The notes: generated from the letters alone by a model not told the origin. A stretch of DNA of 39,097 nucleotides from a virus (IMGVR_UViG_2609460219_000010:1-39097), one strand, 5' to 3'. Counted from the first letter of the stretch, positions 3,708 to 39,097 are shown. A program made the numbers and translations.

Positions 3708-4459
3708 CAGTTTACCCCATCGGTATTGCTTCCACCGCGCTGAACACCGCCATGAGTGTGCGTATCATCGATTGGCTTGCCGTTAGCCTTCACGCTACCC
3801 AAAAACTCAACAGCACCAGTGATTTTTGAAGCTACACCAGAAACAACAGACCCCACCATGCCCCCCATCCAGGTTAACAGGCCATGAATGGTTACTTTCT
3901 CAGAAAAATCAGCCAGAGGGGCAACCACATCAAGGCCCCCCGGAGCGACAATTTTAATTTTCCTGGTATCAGGATTAAGCTCAAAATAGGTGCTGCCGTC
4001 GTCACTACGCAACTGTGTAGCACTGGTATTAATACCGCTAATCTTCCTTGCCTGCGACTGGGGACCGACAATACAAAACGCATCCGATAAATCATGCATT
4101 CTGTCATCAACAGGCTCCTGTATCCCGCCGTTCTGCCACCAGAAATCAATACAACGATCGGCAAAAATCATCAAACATTCATCACCGGCTTTAACTGGGA
4201 ACGTTAGCGTGCATCCTCCGCCGCGCGGGAATACCACTGGCACATCCACCAGCAATGGGTAATTTTGGGTAATGCGGTTGCCGTCATTATCCTTTTCAAC
4301 CGAACGGATAGCAGGCTGCACAACTGCCGTCATCGCATCAGGATCGAATGACTGAATAACGCCAGGCAAGGCGACACGGATCTGGTTCTTTGTTGTTTCC
4401 CGTTCAGATTTAAATGTTTCGGCAAGGTCGCCGCTGCGGGTCTGGTCAGATACTGCCAT
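3707..4459 (-). CDS. baseplate assembly protein V-like (spike)
   Basis: 250 aa; position upstream of small baseplate protein and J; Gly-rich C-terminus. Confidence 0.45.
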   Translation of the reverse strand: MAVSDQTRSGDLAETFKSERETTKNQIRVALPGVIQSFDPDAMTAVVQPAIRSVEKDNDGNRITQNYPLLVDVPVVFPRGGGCTLTFPVKAGDECLMIFADRCIDFWWQNGGIQEPVDDRMHDLSDAFCIVGPQSQARKISGINTSATQLRSDDGSTYFELNPDTRKIKIVAPGGLDVVAPLADFSEKVTIHGLLTWMGGMVGSVVSGVASKITGAVEFLGSVKANGKPIDDTHTHGGVQRGGSNTDGVN

Positions 4460-30136: not shown

Positions 30137-30165
30137 ATAATAGCAATGCGTATTAACCATGGCAA
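30137..30165 (-). promoter_or_regulatory. candidate PR promoter
   Basis: Minus strand -35 TTGCCA, 17-bp spacer, -10 TATTAT, about 27 nt upstream of cro ATG. Confidence 0.4.
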
Positions 30166-30170
30166 TAGCA
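30138..30170. promoter_or_regulatory. candidate OR operator repeats (AATAGCAAT core)
   Basis: Two copies of the AATAGCAAT/CAATAGCA motif overlapping the PR -10 and -35; same motif recurs at candidate OL. Confidence 0.4.
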
Positions 30171-30179
30171 AAACGTGTT

Positions 30180-30207
30180 TTGACCATCAATACGCAAGCG
30201 TATAAAT
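30180..30207 (+). promoter_or_regulatory. candidate PRM promoter (leaderless cI transcript)
   Basis: TTGACC, 15-16 bp spacer, TATAAA/ATAAAT ending about 9 nt before cI ATG at 30216. Confidence 0.35.
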
Positions 30208-30215
30208 TAAAACTT

Positions 30216-30908
30216 ATGAAAAAAGAAACTCTTGCTGATCGCTTAAACCTAGCGATGGAACAATCTGGGATGTCTCAAGGCGCTCTTGCAAAGGCGTCTG
30301 GCGTAGCTCAACCCACAATCTGGAGACTGACAAGCGGCAACGCGCGCGGCTCAACAAAAATTGTTGAAATAGCTAATGCATTGGGTGTTCGAACAGAGTG
30401 GCTCTCATCAGGCATAGGCCCGATGAGAAATGACGGTCAACAATCAGGGAAGCCTACTGTCAACCATTCCAAATACTTCAAGATTGACGTTCTTGATATA
30501 GAAGTGAGTGCCGGGCCGGGAGTCATCAACCGTGAGTTTGTAGAAGTCCTACGCTCGGTTGAGTACTCGTTTGACGATGCTCGTCACATGTTCGATGGCA
30601 GGAAGGCGGAAAATATCCGCATCATTAACGTACGTGGTGACAGCATGTCAGGAACAATCGAACCAGGTGATCTGCTGTTCGTTGATATCACGGTTAAATC
30701 TTTCGACGGTGATGGCATCTATGCGTTTCTGTACGACGACACAGCCCATGTAAAGCGCCTGCAAATGATGAAGGATAAGCTGTTGGTTATCTCTGATAAC
30801 AAGAGCTACTCACCGTGGGANCCGATCGAGAAAGACGAGATGAACCGGGTGTTCATCTTCGGTAAAGTTATTGGGAGCATGCCCCAGACGTACAGGAAAC
30901 ATGGATAA
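30216..30908 (+). CDS. cI: CI-type repressor (HTH + S24 LexA-like autopeptidase)
   Basis: N-terminal HTH (QGALAKASGVAQPTIWRL); C-terminal Ser-Lys dyad motifs GDSM and VKRL; not lambda cI. Start taken at internal Met 30216. Confidence 0.75.
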   Translation: MKKETLADRLNLAMEQSGMSQGALAKASGVAQPTIWRLTSGNARGSTKIVEIANALGVRTEWLSSGIGPMRNDGQQSGKPTVNHSKYFKIDVLDIEVSAGPGVINREFVEVLRSVEYSFDDARHMFDGRKAENIRIINVRGDSMSGTIEPGDLLFVDITVKSFDGDGIYAFLYDDTAHVKRLQMMKDKLLVISDNKSYSPWXPIEKDEMNRVFIFGKVIGSMPQTYRKHG

Positions 30909-30974: not shown

Positions 30975-31839
30975 ATGGATTGTGACGCTTTACAGGATAT
31001 AAAAATCTCTCTTAGGTATGACGGAAAAGATGCTTTAAATCATGAAATAGATTTGAACTGCCTAGGAGAATCCCTAAAGGGTTTTTCTAAAGTTCTCTCA
31101 ACAGCAGCTTCTTTCTCTGTTACACAAAAATATAGTAAATACATTAATTATCAGGAAGTTAAGGTTTACGCACGCGAAGCAAAAGCTAACTGCTTTACTC
31201 TTGAAGCAGTTCTTAACTTCGCCACTCAGAACCAGTTGTTCTCGGGGATCGCCGCAACTATACTTGGCGCAATACTACAATATATTTTTGCGAGAAATTC
31301 TAACAAGAAAGATGAAATGAAAGCTTTGCAGCAGTCACTTGAAAAGGCCATAGAGGCACTAGGAAACAAGGATGCTGGAACCATTGATAAGTTGATCTCT
31401 TTGATTGACCGAATGGCTGTAGAGCTTCGCCCCTCTGTAAGGCAGGCAGTATCACCTATTGGTAATACTTGCGATCAGATAAGTGTTGCAACAAATGTTG
31501 ACGGCTGCCTTCTAAAAGTTAACGAGAGAGATAAAGCTGAAATTGATAGGCTTGATGATGATGAAGTTCTCGGTCTTCGTGAGTATCGTGCTTTTCTTAC
31601 AGAATTTGATGCACAAAATATGACAGCTAAAATAATTTTAGATGGTGATGACTCNAAAAAAGAGAATCACTGCTGAAATTAGCGATCCAGCTGCAGGAAA
31701 GAAGAATAACCCGTATATTAGAGCTCTTAGTGCATATATATCAACCAAAGGTGATCCATCTGCAGTATTCACTATAACCGCAAAGGCTACTGTTAAAAAA
31801 GGCCAGATAAACAGGTTATTTATTGTAGATGCGAAATGA
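30975..31839 (+). CDS. hypothetical protein in rex position (candidate superinfection-exclusion/defence), frame-disrupted at an A-run
   Basis: AT-rich ORF directly after cI on same strand; predicted single TM segment ([19 protein letters not shown]); frames 30975..31676 and 31642..31839 join if the N at 31655 before AAAAAA is dropped; own terminator follows. Confidence 0.5.
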
Positions 31840-32598: not shown

Positions 32599-32895
32599 AT
32601 GAACGCTTATTACATTCAGGATCGTCTTGAGGCTCAGAGCTGGGCGCGTCACTACCAGCAGATCGCCCGTGAAGAGAAAGAGGCAGAACTGGCAGACGAC
32701 ATGGAAAAAGGCCTGCCCCAGCACCTGTTTGAATCGCTATGCATCGATCATTTGCAACGCCACGGGGCCAGCAAAAAAGCTATTACCCGTGCGTTTGATG
32801 ACGATGTTGAGTTTCAGGAGCGCATGGCAGAACACATCCGGTACATGGTTGAAACCATTGCTCACCATCAGGTTGATATTGATTCAGAGGTATAA
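32599..32895 (+). CDS. gam: Gam (RecBCD inhibitor)
   Basis: 98 aa, matches recollection of lambda Gam short form; upstream in-frame sequence resembles long-form N-terminus. Confidence 0.9.
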
Positions 32896-32900
32896 AACGG

Positions 32901-33686
32901 ATGAGTACAGCACTCGCAACGCTGGCAGGGAAGCTGGCTGAACGTGTCGGCATGGATTCTGTCGACCCAGAGGAACTGATCACCACTCTTCGCCAGACGG
33001 CATTTAAAGGTGATGCCAGCGATGCGCAGTTCATCGCATTGTTGATCGTCGCCAACCAGTACGGCCTTAATCCGTGGACGAAAGAAATTTACGCCTTCCC
33101 TGATAAGCAGAACGGCATTGTTCCGGTGGTGGGCGTTGATGGCTGGTCCCGCATCATCAATGAAAACCAGCAGTTTGATGGCATGGACTTTGAGCAGGAC
33201 AATGAATCCTGCACATGCCGGATTTACCGCAAGGACCGTAATCATCCGATCTGCGTTACCGAATGGATGGATGAATGCCGCCGCGAACCATTCAAAACTC
33301 GCGAAGGCAGAGAAATCACGGGGCCGTGGCAGTCGCATCCCAAACGGATGTTACGTCATAAAGCCATGATTCAGTGTGCCCGTCTGGCCTTCGGATTTGC
33401 TGGTATCTATGACAAGGATGAAGCCGAGCGCATTGTCGAAAATACCGCATACACTGCAGAACGTCAGCCGGAACGCGACATCACTCCGGTTAACGATGAA
33501 ACCATGCAGGAGATTAACACTCTGCTGATTGCCCTGGACAAAACATGGGATGACGACTTATTGCCGCTCTGTTCCCAGATATTTCGCCGCGACATTCGCG
33601 CATCGTCAGAACTGACACAGGCCGAAGCAGTGAAAGCTCTTGGATTCCTGAAACAGAAAGCCTCTGAGCAGAAGGTGGCTGCATGA
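32901..33686 (+). CDS. bet: Bet single-strand annealing recombinase
   Basis: 261 aa, near-identical to my recollection of lambda Bet. Confidence 0.95.
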
Positions 33687-34363
33687 CACCGGACATTATC
33701 CTGCAGCGTACCGGGATCGACGTGAGAGCTGTCGAACAGGGGGATGATGCGTGGCACAAATTACGGCTCGGCGTCATCACCGCTTCAGAAGTTCACAACG
33801 TGATAGCAAAGCCCCGCTCAGGAAAGAAGTGGCCTGACATGAAAATGTCCTACTTCCACACCCTGCTGGCTGAGGTTTGCACCGGTGTGGCTCCGGAAGT
33901 TAATGCTAAGGCGCTGGCCTGGGGAAAACAGTACGAGAACGACGCCAGAACCCTGTTTGAATTCACTTCCGGCGTGAATGTTACTGAATCCCCGATCATC
34001 TATCGCGACGAAAGTATGCGCACAGCCTGCTCTCCCGATGGTTTATGCAGTGACTGCAATGGCCTTGAGCTGAAATGCCCGTTTACCTCCAGGGATTTCA
34101 TGAAGTTCCGGCTCGGTGGTTTCGAGGCCATAAAGTCGGCTTACATGGCCCAGGTGCAGTACAGCATGTGGGTGACGCGAAAAGATGCCTGGTACTTTGC
34201 CAACTATGACCCGCGCATGAAGCGTGAAGGCCTGCATTATGTCGTGATTGAGCGGGATGAAAATTACATGGCGAGTTTTGACGAGATGGTGCCGGAGTTC
34301 ATCGAAAAAATGGACGAGGCACTGGCTGAAATTGGTTTTGTATTTGGGGAGCAATGGCGATGA
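33683..34363 (+). CDS. exo: Exo 5'-3' exonuclease
   Basis: 226 aa, near-identical to my recollection of lambda Exo. Confidence 0.95.
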
Positions 34364-34707
34364 CGCATCCTCACGATAATATCCGGGTAGGCGCGATCAC
34401 TTTCGTCTACTCCGTTACAAAGCGAGGCTGGGTATTTCCCGGCCTTTCTGTTATCAGAAATCCACTGAAAGCACAGCGGCTGGCTGAGGAGATAAATAAT
34501 AAACNGGGGGGCTGTATGCACAAAGCATCTCCTGTTGAGTTAAGAACGAGTATCGAGATGGCACATAGCCTCGCTCAAATTGGAGTCAGGTTTGTGCCAA
34601 TACCAGCAGAAACAGACGAAGAATTTCATACGTTAGCCACATCCCTTTCACAAAAGCTGGAAATGATGGTGGCGAAAGCAGAAGCAGATGAGAGAGACCA
34701 GGTATGA
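34354..34707 (+). CDS. small b-region ORFs (lambda orf61/orf63-like), fused in this reading frame across an N
   Basis: C-terminal 63 residues [21 protein letters not shown]... form an independent unit; an N at 34505 before a G-run affects whether the upstream ORF terminates in another frame. Confidence 0.5.
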
Positions 34708-35320: not shown

Positions 35321-35568
35321 GCGTAATTCACTCTCAGGCACTGCGTGAAGCGGCAGAGCAGGCAATGCATGACAACTGGGGATTTGACGCGGACCTTTTC
35401 CATGAGCTGGTAACACCATCGATTGTGCTGACACTGCTGGATGAACGGGAAAGAAACCAGCAATACATCAAACGCCGCGACCAGGAGAACGAGGATATTG
35501 CGCTAACGGTGGGGAAACTGCGTGTTGAGCTGGAGACAGCAAAAATCAAAACTCAACGAGCAGCGTGA
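35317..35568 (+). CDS. hypothetical protein (b-region)
   Basis: 83 aa ORF, start overlaps upstream stop. Confidence 0.4.
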   Translation: MSVIHSQALREAAEQAMHDNWGFDADLFHELVTPSIVLTLLDERERNQQYIKRRDQENEDIALTVGKLRVELETAKIKTQRAA

Positions 35569-35866
35569 GTAGAAGGTGTTATCTCGGATGGAAGTAAGCG
35601 TATTGCTGAACTGGAGGCCTGGGTTGAATACACAAGAGCTGCATACGTAAGAGCAAAAGACAAGGGAGATTTGATCAGAGTTATTACCAGCCAACCAACG
35701 GGATTTTACGCTTACGTACCATGTAATTAGGAATCCTTGAAGTGGCAGCCTAACTGCGGATACACTGAAATGGCGATTTGGTAACATGTTTCGCACAAGG
35801 GTGTTACTACGCTTAGAGATAATCAGCCATGATTAAACGCTTTGTAAAAAGTAAAAGGAAATTACA

Positions 35867-36481
35867 ATGAAAAAATCAATACTAATTTTAGGGCTTACGT
35901 TAATTGTCTCATCTCAAATACCATCGGCAATGGCNAAAAATGAATCAAAACTATGGGTTGTTGTTGATCGAACGGAAAGACATACCTGCCCTTCAAGTAA
36001 ATGTGGAGTGGCTGGGAAACTATTTTTCAGGGAAGGCGTAGATTTTCTAGAAAAAAAAGGTGAATGGGTTCGTATAACTGAGCCATATTCAGCCTCATGT
36101 GTTGGAGGGGAAAGCGAATATATTAAAGAAGGTAATAAATCCTGCACAAGAAAAAATGGAATCGTTAATGGCAAGTTTTCAGAATGGGTTAAACTTAGTG
36201 ATCTTAGCAGTGAAAGGCCATCAGATCCTGCTGAAAATGCGAGCGGAGATGATACTTTAATCAAAGGATCTGATGACTACCGTATATACAAAAAAGAGTT
36301 TTCTTCGGCAGCTAGGAAGTTAATAAATGAAGGGGTCTGCACGGAAAGCGATTTTAAGGAAATCGGAGGGTGGATGGCATCAAGCAATAAGGGTGAAAAC
36401 ATCTATTTCACATATTGCGGAGGAATGACGTTGTCGAACAGAATATACCTAGATGTTAAAAGTGGAAAGACTTTTAGATAA
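35867..36481 (+). CDS. secreted Cys-containing protein, AT-rich moron
   Basis: N-terminal signal peptide MKKSILILGLTLIVSSQIPSAM; AT-rich; AAGGAA RBS; strong terminator downstream. Confidence 0.55.
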   Translation: MKKSILILGLTLIVSSQIPSAMXKNESKLWVVVDRTERHTCPSSKCGVAGKLFFREGVDFLEKKGEWVRITEPYSASCVGGESEYIKEGNKSCTRKNGIVNGKFSEWVKLSDLSSERPSDPAENASGDDTLIKGSDDYRIYKKEFSSAARKLINEGVCTESDFKEIGGWMASSNKGENIYFTYCGGMTLSNRIYLDVKSGKTFR

Positions 36482-36551
36482 TATGATATTACCAATGACA
36501 GTATTGATTTAATGCCTCCATAGAATTATCTCTAGGAAGTAGGTATAAGAA

Positions 36552-36589
36552 AAGCCCGCACAATGAGCTGCTGCGGGCTTTGTGTTATT
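36552..36589 (+). terminator. intrinsic terminator after secreted-protein gene
   Basis: Perfect 9-bp stem AAGCCCGCA/TGCGGGCTT with 11-nt loop, followed by TGTGTTATT. Confidence 0.5.
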
Positions 36590-37108
36590 CGCCATATTTT
36601 ATGAAGCAAATACGACACTATAGATAATTAAGCGTTGCTGGTTGTCGATTCCTCAATCACTCCTGTGGATGACTCTCTTCTTGTATGTGCCATTGAAGGG
36701 GAATATCGCGTAAAAAGATACCGGAAGTATCCGCGCCGCCATTATTGTCTTTCTCCTGATGCAGGAAAAGCAGAATGATCCTACCCACGTAATATGGACA
36801 CAGGCCTAAGCGAGGTTCTGGTTTTCAAATTGTTCCGGACTGAGGCCGCCACACCAACTGTGCCACGCGTCGCTTCAGGCGTGCGCCTTGCGAGTTTGGT
36901 GAGTACATCGCGTTACTGAGCCGCCAGGATGATGCACGTGTGCGCTGGCGTATAAAATCGATCAGCAGAAAACGTTGCGGTAAGTGCGGCGAGAGAGTTC
37001 CTGTTAATTCATGCCCGTGTAATGGTGACTCACAATGCTGGGTGACCAAAGGCTGGCACGAAACAAAATTAATGATATAAATCTCTGTGACATGTCACGG
37101 AGGCGGCA

Positions 37109-37537
37109 ATGAAATTAGACCAGCAATATCTAAAAGATCTACTTATCGCATTCGAAAAAACTCGTGGCCCTGACACGATGCTTAGTGAACTAGAGGATAA
37201 TGGCTTTAATAGATATGACCAAGATTTTATTTTCCATATGCGATTATTATGTGACTACGAATTAATAGTCAGGGTTGATGGAAAACCTGGATTCGGTCAT
37301 ATAATGTCCAAAGCGTTAGGGGAAGGTGTTGGATATAGTTGGATCGAAGTACCACTGAGGTTGACAGCAAGAGGGCATGATTTTATTGCTGACTTACGTC
37401 AAAAGGATGTCTGGCAAGCTATAAAAACAAACTTTAAGGATGAGGGAATTAGTACACTTATGAGTGTTTCAAAATCACTAGCAAAAGGCTTTGCAAGGAA
37501 AAAGATAAAAGATATTACAGGAATAGATATTGAATAA
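37109..37537 (+). CDS. hypothetical protein, AT-rich moron upstream of xis
   Basis: 142 aa, strongly AT-rich, GGAGG RBS, own hairpin terminator. Confidence 0.55.
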   Translation: MKLDQQYLKDLLIAFEKTRGPDTMLSELEDNGFNRYDQDFIFHMRLLCDYELIVRVDGKPGFGHIMSKALGEGVGYSWIEVPLRLTARGHDFIADLRQKDVWQAIKTNFKDEGISTLMSVSKSLAKGFARKKIKDITGIDIE

Positions 37538-37582
37538 TTCTTAGCATCAAGCAACTACTGCCTTTGGTGGAAATTATATCTG

Positions 37583-37608
37583 AACTCGCTACGGCGAGTT
37601 TTGTTTTA
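37583..37608 (+). terminator. intrinsic terminator
   Basis: AACTCGC-TACG-GCGAGTT hairpin followed by TTGTTTTA. Confidence 0.45.
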
Positions 37609-37620
37609 TGGAGATGATAA

Positions 37621-37788
37621 ATGCACTTCCGAGTCACAGGTGAATGGAATGGAGAGCCATTCAACAGGGTTATCGAAGCAGAGAACATCAACGACTGCTA
37701 TAACCACTGGATGATATGGGCGCAGATAGCGCATGCAGACGTAACCAATATTCGAATTGAAGAACTGAAAGAACACCAAGCCGCCTGA
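37621..37788 (+). CDS. small ORF upstream of xis (55 aa)
   Basis: Below ORF-track cutoff; GGAG RBS; stop lies inside the next terminator hairpin. Confidence 0.35.
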   Translation: MHFRVTGEWNGEPFNRVIEAENINDCYNHWMIWAQIAHADVTNIRIEELKEHQAA

Positions 37789-37800
37789 TGGCGGTTTTTT
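37780..37800 (+). terminator. intrinsic terminator upstream of xis
   Basis: CCGCC-TGAT-GGCGG hairpin followed by T6. Confidence 0.45.
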
Positions 37801-37827
37801 CTTGCGTGTAATTGCGGAGACTTTGCG

Positions 37828-38046
37828 ATGTACTTGACACTTCAGGAGTGGAACGCACGCCAGCGACGCCCAAGAAGCCTTGAAACAGTTCGTCGATGGG
37901 TTCGCGAATGCAGGATATTCCCACCTCCGGTTAAGGATGGAAGAGAGTATCTGTTCCACGAATCAGCGGTAAAGGTTGACTTAAATCGACCAGTAACAGG
38001 TAGCCTTTTGAAGAGGATCAGAAATGGGAAGAAGGCGAAGTCATGA
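37828..38046 (+). CDS. xis: excisionase Xis
   Basis: 72 aa, matches recollection of lambda Xis essentially throughout. Confidence 0.9.
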   Translation: MYLTLQEWNARQRRPRSLETVRRWVRECRIFPPPVKDGREYLFHESAVKVDLNRPVTGSLLKRIRNGKKAKS

Positions 38047-39097
38047 GCGCCGGGATTTACCCCCTAACCTTTATATAAGAAACAATGGATATTACTGCTA
38101 CAGGGACCCAAGGACGGGTAAAGAGTTTGGATTAGGCCGAGACAGGAGGATAGCAATCACTGAAGCAATACAGGCCAATATTGAGTTACTCTCAGACAGC
38201 GGACGCAAATCACTGATAGACAGAATTAAAGGCGGTGACGCAATCACTCTTCATGTGTGGCTTGACCGATATGAAAGAATCCTCACCGAAAGGGGGATCA
38301 GGCCGAAAACTCTACTCGACTACGCCAGCAAAATCANGGCAATCCGAAGAAAATTGCCGGACAAACCGCTCACTGACATATCAACGAAAGAAGTGGCAGC
38401 AATGCTAAACACCTACGTAGCAGAAGGTAAAGCAGCTTCCGCAAAATTAATCAGGTCAACCCTTGTTGACGTTTTTCGTGAAGCAATAGCCGAGGGGCAT
38501 GTGGCAACGAATCCGGTAACAGCAACCCGTACAGCAAAGTCAGAAGTAAGGCGCTCAAGGCTGACAGCTAATGAGTATGTCGAGATTTACCATGCAGCCG
38601 AACCTCTCCCTATCTGGCTAAGGCTGGCGATGGATTTGGCCGTCGTTACAGGGCAGAGAGTCGGCGATTTGTGCAGAATGAAATGGTCAGACATAAACGA
38701 CAACCATCTTCACATTGAACAGAGTAAAACAGGGGCTAAACTCGCCATTCCGCTAACGCTAACGATTGACGCGCTCAATATCTCATTGGCTGATACACTA
38801 CAGAAATGCAGGGAGGCCAGCAGCAGTGAAACTATAATCGCATCAAAGCATCACGATCCTCTTTCCCCGAAAACAGTATCAAAGTATTTTACAAAGGCGA
38901 GAAATGCATCTGGACTCTCATTTGATGGAAACCCGCCAACATTCCATGAACTGCGTAGCCTGTCAGCGAGGCTATACCGGAACCAGATTGGCGATAAATT
39001 TGCTCAACGTCTTCTCGGGCATAAATCAGATTCAATGGCGGCGCGGTATAGGGACAGCCGTGGACGGGAATGGGACAAAATTGAAATCGACAAATGA
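38024..39097 (+). CDS. int: tyrosine integrase (lambda Int family)
   Basis: N-terminal ~55 aa and C-terminal catalytic segment (..HELRSLSARLY.., ..GREWDKIEI) match lambda Int; central core-binding region diverged; overlaps xis as in lambda. Confidence 0.95.
   Translation: MGRRRSHERRDLPPNLYIRNNGYYCYRDPRTGKEFGLGRDRRIAITEAIQANIELLSDSGRKSLIDRIKGGDAITLHVWLDRYERILTERGIRPKTLLDYASKIXAIRRKLPDKPLTDISTKEVAAMLNTYVAEGKAASAKLIRSTLVDVFREAIAEGHVATNPVTATRTAKSEVRRSRLTANEYVEIYHAAEPLPIWLRLAMDLAVVTGQRVGDLCRMKWSDINDNHLHIEQSKTGAKLAIPLTLTIDALNISLADTLQKCREASSSETIIASKHHDPLSPKTVSKYFTKARNASGLSFDGNPPTFHELRSLSARLYRNQIGDKFAQRLLGHKSDSMAARYRDSRGREWDKIEIDK

What the first reader, a model, noticed from the sequence alone, without database searches (positions are those of the whole stretch)
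37109..37608. Second AT-rich moron (142 aa) with own terminator immediately upstream of xis-int
Seen: strongly AT-rich ORF with GGAGG RBS and a hairpin terminator (37583-37608), inserted next to the integration module. No motif recognised. Inference: cargo near the attachment end, a frequent site of accessory gene gain.
Basis: partly seen in the sequence, partly recalled or inferred. Interest (0 to 1): 0.45.

Follow-up and report, generated by a model that had tools for sequence, protein, structure and literature searches.

The report
Orphan winged-helix cargo gene in prophage
The 142-codon AT-rich ORF is a real, conserved gene for a small winged-helix protein of the uncharacterised DUF2513 family, carried as optional cargo in the variable stretch just before the excision and integration genes of a lambda-like prophage; it is ordinary in kind, but relatives of its domain are fused to known anti-phage killing modules, which hints at a role in phage-bacterium conflict.

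Summary
The ORF (37109-37537, +), its GGAGG ribosome site and the hairpin at 37582-37608 are all there, and the ORF is the most AT-rich 429-nt stretch of the window (36% vs 50% GC). It is not motif-less. It is a DUF2513 (PF10711) / PHROG 585 protein, modelled with high confidence as a MarR/PadR-like winged helix plus three C-terminal helices. It sits in the variable end of the exo-xis region, where lambda has ea8.5, and points the same way as the pL early-left operon. orf55 lies between it and xis.

The terminator is not the gene's own: lambda has the same hairpin downstream of ea8.5. The ORF also arrived as the second gene of a pair. Its upstream partner (PHROG 536) is cut here by an IS3 end fragment. 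That partner is broken in 23 of 41 related E. coli loci, while DUF2513 is intact in all 41.

No convincing private promoter was found. Function is untested. Relatives occur as stand-alone units between lysis and terminase genes, as Vibrio integron cassettes, and fused to TIR, PDC-S60 and AbiTi-like defence modules. My best guess is a stand-alone recognition (probably DNA-binding) module used in phage conflict. Interest is modest.

The parts
37109..37537 (+). DUF2513-family winged-helix protein gene (142 aa), intact
   Evidence: ORF. PF10711 at 7.7e-11 and PHROG 585 at 2.2e-34. AlphaFold2 pLDDT 93.6. 100% identical copies in IMG/VR contigs and annotated 'DUF2513 domain-containing protein' in RefSeq.
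37099..37103 (+). Shine-Dalgarno GGAGG, 5 nt before the ATG
   Evidence: Read from the sequence. Conserved as GGAG/GGGG/AGGAG in orthologous loci.
37087..37098 (.). Perfect 12-bp palindrome GTGACATGTCAC. It is a fixture of the 3' end of the upstream PHROG-536 gene, not of DUF2513
   Evidence: Single exact copy in the window. Found at or over the stop codon of the PHROG-536 gene in every context, including where the next gene is unrelated.
37053..37081 (+). Weak candidate promoter: -35 CTGGCA, 17-nt spacer, extended -10 TGaTATAAA. Unproven, and it overlaps the last codons and the stop of the upstream gene
   Evidence: Read by eye; missed by the consensus scan. The stretch is conserved 60-72% where four-fold sites are saturated, but coding constraint of the upstream gene confounds this.
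37582..37608 (+). Intrinsic-terminator-like hairpin plus U-run, shared with lambda (downstream of ea8.5)
   Evidence: dG -11.9, z -3.5; alignment with lambda.
36856..37080 (+). 3' two-thirds of the PHROG-536 gene (112 aa when intact); a pseudogene here and the ancestral upstream partner of DUF2513
   Evidence: tblastn 100% identity over residues 39-112. PHROG 536 at 8e-19 on the 46-aa ORF. Intact in E. coli PK8568 and phage Chlobot.
36776..36865 (-). Terminal fragment of IS3 (right end, C-terminus of orfB on the - strand) that replaces the 5' third of the PHROG-536 gene
   Evidence: Alignment with the intact loci. 94-100% identity to IS3 copies in 3990 of 5426 E. coli genomes.
36635..36778 (+). 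Remnant of an UmuD-like / 'DNA repair protein' gene
   Evidence: Annotated as a pseudogene in RefSeq and as UmuD-like in phage Chlobot.
35867..36582 (+). The other AT-rich cargo gene of the block (204-aa putative lipoprotein, PHROG 8310) with its own strong hairpin at 36551-36582
   Evidence: dG -18.1, z -3.8. 38% GC.
37621..37788 (+). orf55 (lambda backbone gene) between the DUF2513 gene and xis
   Evidence: PHROG 676 at 1.7e-39. 97% identical to lambda.
37778..37797 (+). Second terminator hairpin just before pI/xis (annotated as a terminator in phage 434)

Best explanation
Shown. The ORF is an intact gene under purifying selection for a stand-alone DUF2513-family protein. The protein is a MarR/PadR-like winged helix (residues 1-98, net acidic) followed by three helices, the last one (114-137) basic. 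The gene is optional cargo in the variable distal part of the exo-xis region of a lambda-like prophage, in the place lambda gives to ea8.5. It came in behind a nin-region-type gene (PHROG 536) as a two-gene unit. That partner is broken here by an IS3 scar, and DUF2513 persists without it.

Inferred. The gene lies about 5 kb downstream of pL on the same strand, with terminator hairpins on the way. I could not find a convincing promoter of its own. It is therefore most likely made early, from N-antiterminated pL transcripts after infection or induction, with at most weak expression in the lysogen.

Mechanism I commit to (inferred). The protein is a self-contained recognition module, most probably a dimeric DNA-binding winged helix. 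It uses helix 38-49 and the long wing with the family-invariant R84-L-T-x-x-G-H motif. It acts in phage-phage or phage-host conflict rather than in phage housekeeping. The same domain is the N-terminal module of proteins whose C-termini are TIR, PDC-S60-type or AbiTi-like abortive-infection effectors. Stand-alone copies travel as single-gene cargo in prophage accessory slots and in integron cassettes.
For: Identity and fold:
- PF10711 at 42.7 bits against a cut-off of 29.6; PHROG 585.
- Model pLDDT 93.6, pTM 0.84.
- Family-wide invariants H43, D49, G63, R84-L85-T86, G89, H90 in 132 diverse members.

Selection:
- 65-76% amino-acid identity with saturated four-fold sites.
- Intact in 41 of 41 E. 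coli-type loci, while the upstream gene is broken in 23 of 41 by at least 4 independent lesions.

Accessory status and slot; PMC8614690 for the variable exo-xis block and its early pL transcription.

Orientation with the early-left operon.

Mobility between slots:
- exo-xis, nin/Q-proximal and int-adjacent positions.
- Between lysis and terminase genes, with terminator-promoter-gene-terminator anatomy in L024.
- Vibrio integron cassette flanked by attC-like repeats.

Link to conflict systems, from fusions among 150 representative clusters:
- P0128 with CAP12/Pycsar-type TIR (7.7e-21) and PDC-S35.
- P0196 with PDC-S60 (2e-28).
- P0114, P0197 and P0208 with an AbiTi-like C-terminus (2.6e-4 to 5e-7).
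Against: - No experiment of any kind bears on the function, and a full-text search for DUF2513 found one unrelated paper.
- The protein itself matches no PADLOC model.
- Only about 5% of representative clusters are effector fusions. A domain shared with defence proteins does not make the stand-alone form a defence or counter-defence protein.
- No TIR or AbiTi-like gene sits next to stand-alone copies in the loci fetched, and neighbours of distant members are heterogeneous.
- The winged-helix part is net acidic (charge -4.2) and its 'recognition' helix is rich in aromatic residues. That fits protein or ligand binding as well as DNA binding.
- The only palindrome nearby turned out to belong to the upstream gene, so no operator is identified.
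- Expression from pL is inferred from position only.
Confidence: 0.45

Rival explanations
1. Classical moron: a self-contained unit with its own promoter and terminator, expressed from the repressed prophage, that benefits the lysogen, for example by excluding other phages.
For: - Strong compositional contrast.
- DUF2513 is kept intact in all 41 prophage copies while its neighbour decays, which suggests selection in the prophage state.
- Relatives at 43-50% identity are flanked by terminators and promoter-like sites between lysis and terminase genes.
- There is a weak -35/extended -10 candidate at 37053-37081, and about 60 nt upstream are conserved beyond neutral expectation.
Against: - The hairpin is lambda backbone, not private.
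- No + strand promoter reaches the consensus threshold.
- The candidate -10 lacks the conserved final T and overlaps the stop codon and last codons of the upstream gene, which explains its conservation.
- The gene points with the pL operon like all exo-xis genes.
Confidence: 0.3
2. Developmental modulator like other exo-xis genes: an early transcription factor or RNA-polymerase-associated protein that tunes the lysis-lysogeny decision or induction of its own phage.
For: - It sits in the exo-xis region, whose genes (ea22, orf60a, orf61, orf63, ea8.5) shift lysogenisation and induction (PMC3824215, PMC7093339, PMC8614690).
- It has a winged-helix fold typical of transcription factors.
- PMC8614690 predicts a winged-helix protein (Gp05) in the same region of phage Phi24B.
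Against: - The same gene sits in nin regions, next to late genes and in Vibrio integron cassettes that have no phage around them. Its role is therefore not tied to one phage's regulatory circuit.
- No second copy of any candidate binding site is present in the window.
Confidence: 0.2
3. Counter-defence decoy: a free copy of the sensor domain of host DUF2513-effector proteins, made early in infection, that titrates their trigger or poisons their assembly.
For: - Full-length DUF2513, including the C-terminal helices, is the N-terminal part of TIR and AbiTi-like fusion proteins.
- Its position in early operons is where lambdoid phages keep anti-defence genes (the second point is general knowledge).
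Against: - Fusions are rare and come mostly from other lineages. None was shown to occur in E. coli.
- Integron-cassette and late-region copies are hard to reconcile with a purely phage-serving role.
Confidence: 0.12
4. Partner (antitoxin-like or co-regulator) of the upstream PHROG-536 protein, with the two acting as one module.
For: - The pair recurs in at least four different genomic slots.
- The upstream gene is often lost while the downstream one never is. That is the pattern expected if losing the second gene alone is harmful.
Against: - PHROG 536 is a very common nin-region gene that usually has other downstream neighbours.
- DUF2513 is usually solitary.
- DUF2513 stays intact in clades where the partner has long been a pseudogene.
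Confidence: 0.08

Closest known systems
Pfam DUF2513 (PF10711) / PHROG 585, with the related YjcQ (PF09639) winged-helix family
   Same: It scores above the Pfam gathering threshold over the whole model (residues 2-115) and carries the family signature F-x-F-H ... D ... G ... P-L-R-L-T-x-x-G-H-x-F. RefSeq already names identical copies 'DUF2513 domain-containing protein'.
   Different: Nothing. It is a plain member of a family for which no function has been published in the library searched.
MarR / PadR / HxlR winged-helix transcription regulators
   Different: - No sequence-level relationship: no PDB hit with the profile, and Foldseek E above 0.04 with TM 0.4-0.58.
- The wing is unusually long (residues 56-82).
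- The helix-turn-helix part is acidic.
- No operator was identified and no ligand-sensing partner genes were seen.
Lambda exo-xis accessory genes (ea8.5, orf55, ea22) and their counterparts in 434 and Stx phages
   Same: Same genomic slot, same orientation and same downstream hairpin as lambda ea8.5. It is a small non-essential early gene in a region known to vary between lambdoid phages (PMC8614690).
   Different: No sequence similarity to Ea8.5 or to 434 ORF114. Ea8.5 has a homeodomain/zinc-finger fold (PMC8614690), whereas this is a winged helix.
Morons of lambdoid phages (for example lambda bor and lom)
   Same: Compositionally foreign, optional, and inserted between backbone genes. Relatives of this gene have full terminator-promoter-gene-terminator anatomy downstream of the lysis genes, in the same region as bor.
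   Different: This copy has no demonstrable promoter, its terminator is the backbone's, and it is co-oriented with the early operon.
Single-protein abortive-infection or defence proteins with an N-terminal sensor and a C-terminal effector (TIR proteins such as PDC-S35 or Pycsar TIR effectors, PDC-S60, AbiTi-like)
   Same: Relatives use the DUF2513 domain as the N-terminal module of such proteins.
   Different: The window protein ends after the DUF2513 helices, has no effector domain and matches no PADLOC model.

Membership tests
DUF2513 (PF10711) | Match to the Pfam model above the curated gathering score | tested here: met
   42.7 bits against a cut-off of 29.6, model positions 1-100 of 100. 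PHROG 585 at 2.2e-34.
DUF2513 (PF10711) | Family-wide conserved residues present (H43, D49, G63, R84-L-T86, G89, H90, F92) | tested here: met
   Alignment of 132 diverse members; all are present in the window protein.
Moron (Hendrix-type extra transcription unit) | Extra gene between genes that are adjacent, or differently filled, in related phages, with atypical base composition | tested here: met
   It replaces ea8.5 of lambda. 36.1% GC against 49.6%, in the lowest 0.1% of windows.
Moron (Hendrix-type extra transcription unit) | Its own terminator | tested here: not met
   The hairpin is real, but it is part of the sequence shared with lambda downstream of ea8.5.
Moron (Hendrix-type extra transcription unit) | Its own promoter | tested here: inconclusive
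   No + strand consensus match. There is only a weak by-eye candidate that overlaps the end of the upstream gene.
Moron (Hendrix-type extra transcription unit) | Expression from the repressed prophage | not testable with these tools
   Needs transcript data from a lysogen.
MarR/PadR-type winged-helix DNA-binding regulators | Winged helix-turn-helix fold | tested here: met
MarR/PadR-type winged-helix DNA-binding regulators | Sequence membership in those families | tested here: not met
   No MarR, PadR or HxlR Pfam hit at E up to 1. No PDB sequence or profile hit.
MarR/PadR-type winged-helix DNA-binding regulators | Palindromic operator at its own promoter | tested here: not met
   The only nearby palindrome (37087-37098) belongs to the 3' end of the upstream PHROG-536 gene in all contexts.
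MarR/PadR-type winged-helix DNA-binding regulators | DNA binding and dimerisation | not testable with these tools
   Needs EMSA, SEC-MALS or a multimer model.
Known or candidate anti-phage defence systems (PADLOC-DB v2) | Match to a defence-protein model | tested here: not met
   No hit at E up to 1 for the window protein. Only fused relatives hit, through their C-terminal TIR, PDC-S60 or AbiTi-like parts.
Lambda Ea8.5 family | Sequence similarity to Ea8.5 | tested here: not met
   BLASTP E = 9.
   Pfam, PHROGs and NCBIfam give only DUF2513 / unknown function. Only 3 of 50,697 phage records carry a homologue.

The most novel reading that the evidence does not exclude
Stand-alone DUF2513 proteins are a widespread, unrecognised class of single-gene phage-conflict factors. 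They would act either as a minimal exclusion or defence protein, or as a free 'sensor-domain' decoy that disarms DUF2513-TIR/AbiTi-type abortive-infection proteins. They would spread as plug-in cargo through prophage accessory slots and integron cassettes.
Probability: 0.25. Interest if true: 0.55.

Novelty: new member of a known kind. Interest (0 to 1): 0.3.

Why it matters
As it stands, this is one more uncharacterised accessory gene in the well-known variable end of the lambdoid exo-xis region. It is already annotated in RefSeq as a DUF2513 protein. Three observations make DUF2513 a cheap and reasonable candidate for phage-challenge and counter-defence screens:
- The 140-residue winged helix is the N-terminal module of TIR, PDC-S60 and AbiTi-like effector proteins.
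- It moves as a single-gene unit between at least four prophage slots and into integron cassettes.
- It is kept intact in prophages while its neighbour decays.

If a function were found, it would annotate more than a thousand protein clusters at once (1341 clusters at 50% identity).

Tried and rejected
1. The palindrome GTGACATGTCAC (37087-37098) as the winged helix's own operator, or as an SD-sequestering RNA hairpin. In the E. coli allele the RNA fold does bury the GGAGG (dG -10.8, z -3.0). But the flanks that pair with the SD are not conserved, and there is no covariation. The 12-mer also sits at or over the stop codon of the PHROG-536 gene wherever that gene occurs, including where a terminator or an unrelated gene follows. 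Rejected as a DUF2513-specific element.

2. A private promoter inferred from conservation of the 62 nt upstream. This is confounded, because most of that stretch is the coding 3' end of PHROG 536 or a relic of it. Left as inconclusive.

3. LexA box or CRP site at the palindrome. The conserved core is GACATGTC, not the CTGT/ACAG or TGTGA/TCACA arms. Judged by eye on the sequences and rejected.

5. Sequence and profile searches of PDB found nothing.

6. Rfam and tRNA scans of 35500-39097 found nothing. The odd 90-nt stretch at 36776-36865 is an IS3 end.

7. A search for split versions (a stand-alone DUF2513 next to an AbiTi-like or TIR gene) in all 149 fetched loci found none.

8. Pfam on neighbours of distant members gave no recurrent partner.

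9. Literature searches for DUF2513, PF10711, phrog_585 and the RefSeq accession found nothing relevant.

10. Homology to lambda Ea8.5 or 434 ORF114, for either DUF2513 or PHROG 536: none.

Full report
**1. What is at the coordinates**

The window is a lambda-like prophage. Its + strand carries the early-left operon: gam 32599-32895, bet 32901-33686, exo 33683-34363, then xis 37828-38046 and int 38024-39097. A cI-like repressor lies at 30159-30908 and the replication genes are on the other strand.

- The ORF 37109-37537 (+) encodes 142 aa.
- GGAGG lies at 37099-37103, 5 nt before the ATG.
- The ORF is 36.1% GC (GC3 28%) against 49.6% for the window. Only 0.1% of 429-nt windows are as AT-rich.
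- The hairpin reported at 37583-37608 is real. It has an 8-bp stem (37582-37589 / 37594-37601) followed by UGUUUU, with dG -11.9 kcal/mol and z -3.5.

**2. It is a real gene of a known but uncharacterised family**

- The protein matches Pfam DUF2513 (PF10711; 42.7 bits, cut-off 29.6) over the whole model, and PHROG 585 of unknown function.
- NCBIfam and PADLOC give nothing.
- Identical or near-identical copies are annotated 'DUF2513 domain-containing protein' in RefSeq.
- Orthologues of about 140 aa occur across Enterobacterales.
- A profile search of 1.8 billion representatives finds 1341 clusters, nearly all stand-alone proteins of about 135 aa.
- Between E. coli, Citrobacter, Serratia, Enterobacter and Yersinia copies the proteins are 62-80% identical, while four-fold degenerate sites are saturated at 21-51% identity. 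That shows long-term purifying selection.

**3. Fold**

An AlphaFold2 model built on 31 homologues is confident (pLDDT 93.6, pTM 0.84). Its elements in order are helix 5-16, a short strand, helix 25-30, helix 38-49, a long beta wing (53-85), then helices 87-97, 99-108 and 114-137.

- Foldseek against PDB and against viral models gives nothing better than generic winged helices.
- PDB sequence and profile searches are empty.
- Across 132 diverse family members the near-invariant residues are H43 and D49 (third helix), G63 (wing), R84-L-T86, G89, H90 and F92 (last wing strand and the start of the next helix). This recalls the MarR 'R...LTxxG' arrangement.
- Residues 1-98 are net acidic (-4.2). 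The last helix is basic (+4.8) and moderately amphipathic.

**4. Where it sits, and what is its own**

Similarity to lambda starts at about window 37573. That segment includes the hairpin, orf55 (37621-37788, PHROG 676), a second terminator (37778-37797, at the position annotated as a terminator just before the pI promoter in phage 434) and xis. In lambda the same hairpin follows ea8.5. So the terminator belongs to the backbone junction, and the DUF2513 gene occupies the ea8.5 slot. orf55 lies between it and xis.

The protein resembles neither Ea8.5 nor 434 ORF114. [quoted passage not shown]

- Of 1216 complete E. coli genomes that match the junction, 167 carry the whole DUF2513 segment.
- Only 3 of 50,697 phage records hold a homologue.

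**5. The gene did not arrive alone**

The stretch between the truncated ea22-like gene and the hairpin is a patchwork:
- a 204-aa putative lipoprotein gene (35867-36481, 38% GC) with its own strong hairpin (36551-36582, dG -18.1);
- an UmuD-like remnant (36635-36778);
- a 112-aa gene of PHROG 536;
- DUF2513.

In this window the first third of the PHROG-536 gene is replaced by about 90 nt of an IS3 end at 36776-36865.

The pair PHROG 536 + DUF2513 recurs in several unrelated slots: exo-xis in E. coli, Q-proximal nin regions, and next to other integrases. Where the first gene is absent (Citrobacter and Enterobacter nin regions, the Serratia early-left operon), a 45-75-nt relic of its 3' end is still attached to DUF2513.

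PHROG 536 is itself a very common nin-region gene, found after NinX and before Rem/Q or terminase. It usually has other downstream neighbours.

In 41 E. coli-type loci DUF2513 is intact in all 41. PHROG 536 is broken in 23, by at least four independent lesions:
- the IS3 scar in this window;
- a 218-bp deletion;
- a nonsense codon shared by one clade;
- a frameshift.

With equal per-base risk, four to five hits all missing the larger gene has a probability of roughly 0.02-0.04 (my arithmetic).

**6. Regulation: what I tested and dropped**

A perfect 12-bp palindrome, GTGACATGTCAC (37087-37098), abuts the SD. It is invariant in many lineages whose flanks differ. I first took it for an operator of the winged helix. 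In the E. coli allele the RNA would also bury the SD. However, the palindrome sits at or over the stop codon of PHROG 536 in every context, including where a terminator or an unrelated gene follows. There is no covariation. It belongs to that gene, and its role is open.

The consensus scan finds no + strand promoter in 35600-38100. A weak candidate exists (-35 CTGGCA at 37053-37058, 17 nt, TGaTATAAA at 37073-37081). It lies in a stretch conserved at 60-72%, but that stretch encodes, or once encoded, the C-terminus of PHROG 536.

I therefore infer expression mainly from antiterminated pL transcripts. Lysogen expression remains unproven.

**7. Clues to function from relatives**

(a) Position is promiscuous. 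Besides the early regions, copies at 43-50% identity sit between lysis genes (lysozyme, Rz-like) and terminase genes. In Serratia sp. H1w the scan tool gives terminator, promoter-like site, gene, terminator.

(b) In Vibrio the gene is a single-gene integron cassette. In V. proteolyticus it is flanked by a 7-copy family of attC-like repeats spaced 461-1044 nt apart. Integron cassettes have recently been shown to encode phage defence (bioRxiv 10.1101/2024.07.02.601719). That paper is context only, not evidence for this gene.

(c) About 5% of the top 150 representative clusters are fusions in which DUF2513 is the N-terminal module:
- P0128 with a CAP12/Pycsar-type TIR (Pfam 7.7e-21; PADLOC PDC-S35 and TIR effectors);
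- P0196 with the N-terminal region of PDC-S60 (2e-28);
- P0114, P0197 and P0208 with an AbiTi-like C-terminus ending in a hydrophobic helix (2.6e-4 to 5e-7).

No such effector genes lie beside stand-alone copies in the loci fetched. Neighbours of distant members are heterogeneous.

**8. Interpretation**

Identity, accessory status and anatomy are well supported. For mechanism, I commit to a stand-alone recognition module, probably a dimeric DNA-binding winged helix, acting in phage-phage or phage-host conflict and made early from pL. Overall confidence is 0.45.

The rivals are:
- a true lysogen-expressed moron (0.3);
- a developmental modulator like other exo-xis genes (0.2);
- a counter-defence decoy of DUF2513-effector proteins (0.12);
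- a functional partner of PHROG 536 (0.08).

These overlap. All hinge on experiments listed under next steps.

**9. Verdict**

The 'moron with its own terminator' reading is only partly right. The gene is a member of a known, uncharacterised family in a known variable slot. Interest is modest at 0.3. The fusion and mobility data give a testable lead, but nothing here would surprise a specialist yet.

Noticed in passing
window 36776-36865: About 90 nt of an IS3 right end (the - strand reads the C-terminus of orfB, ...PEQFENQNLA*) replace the first third of the 112-aa PHROG-536 gene. The junction with phage DNA shares the microhomology AACTGTGCC.
   Followed up: yes
window 37087-37098; also L016:2242-2253, L140-L149 around 4335-4350: The perfect palindrome GTGACATGTCAC is a fixture of the 3' end or stop codon of PHROG-536 genes in E. 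coli, Salmonella, Citrobacter and others, whatever gene follows. It is invariant while its flanks vary. Its function is unknown; possibilities are a protein-binding site, an RNA element or a recombination boundary.
   Followed up: partly
L060-L099 (IMG/VR E. coli prophage contigs), 340 nt upstream of the DUF2513 gene: The PHROG-536 gene is inactivated independently several times: a 218-bp deletion in L073/L074, a TGT-to-TGA nonsense codon in the L075-L099 clade, a frameshift in L090, and another lesion in L062. The DUF2513 gene behind it is always intact.
   Followed up: yes
window 35867-36582: The first AT-rich cargo gene: a 204-aa protein with a lipoprotein-like signal peptide and a weak SH3_3 hit (PHROG 8310), followed by a strong terminator hairpin (dG -18.1). 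It travels with the DUF2513 block in E. coli prophages.
   Followed up: partly
window 36635-36778: Remnant of an UmuD-like (S24 peptidase) 'DNA repair protein' gene. RefSeq marks the counterpart in E. coli PK8568 as an incomplete pseudogene.
   Followed up: partly
window 37621-37797: orf55 is bracketed by two terminator-like hairpins (37582-37601 and 37778-37797). Both are shared with lambda. The second is at the position of the terminator annotated before pI in phage 434.
   Followed up: partly
window 30975-31676: A 233-aa ORF lies directly downstream of the cI-like repressor on the same strand, in the position of rexAB in lambda. It is a candidate lysogen-expressed accessory gene and was not examined.
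   Followed up: no
L028:400-4800 (Vibrio proteolyticus); also L021, L026, L036: DUF2513 homologues are single-gene cassettes in chromosomal integron arrays, with 7 attC-like repeats of about 120-130 nt spaced 461-1044 nt apart.
   Followed up: partly
proteins P0128, P0196, P0114, P0197, P0208, P0241, P0159: These are fusions of a full or partial DUF2513 domain to TIR (PDC-S35/Pycsar-like), to a PDC-S60-like domain, or to an AbiTi-like C-terminal domain carrying a conserved 'N-x-x-N-I-G...I-N-S-P-I-Q-Q-G-G-A-H' linker and a hydrophobic tail.
   Followed up: partly
window, 17 positions (for example within 34264-34521, 35867-36481, 38024-39097): The window contains 17 N bases that give X in several translations, including int and the lipoprotein. 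The sequence is therefore draft quality. None falls in the DUF2513 ORF.
   Followed up: yes
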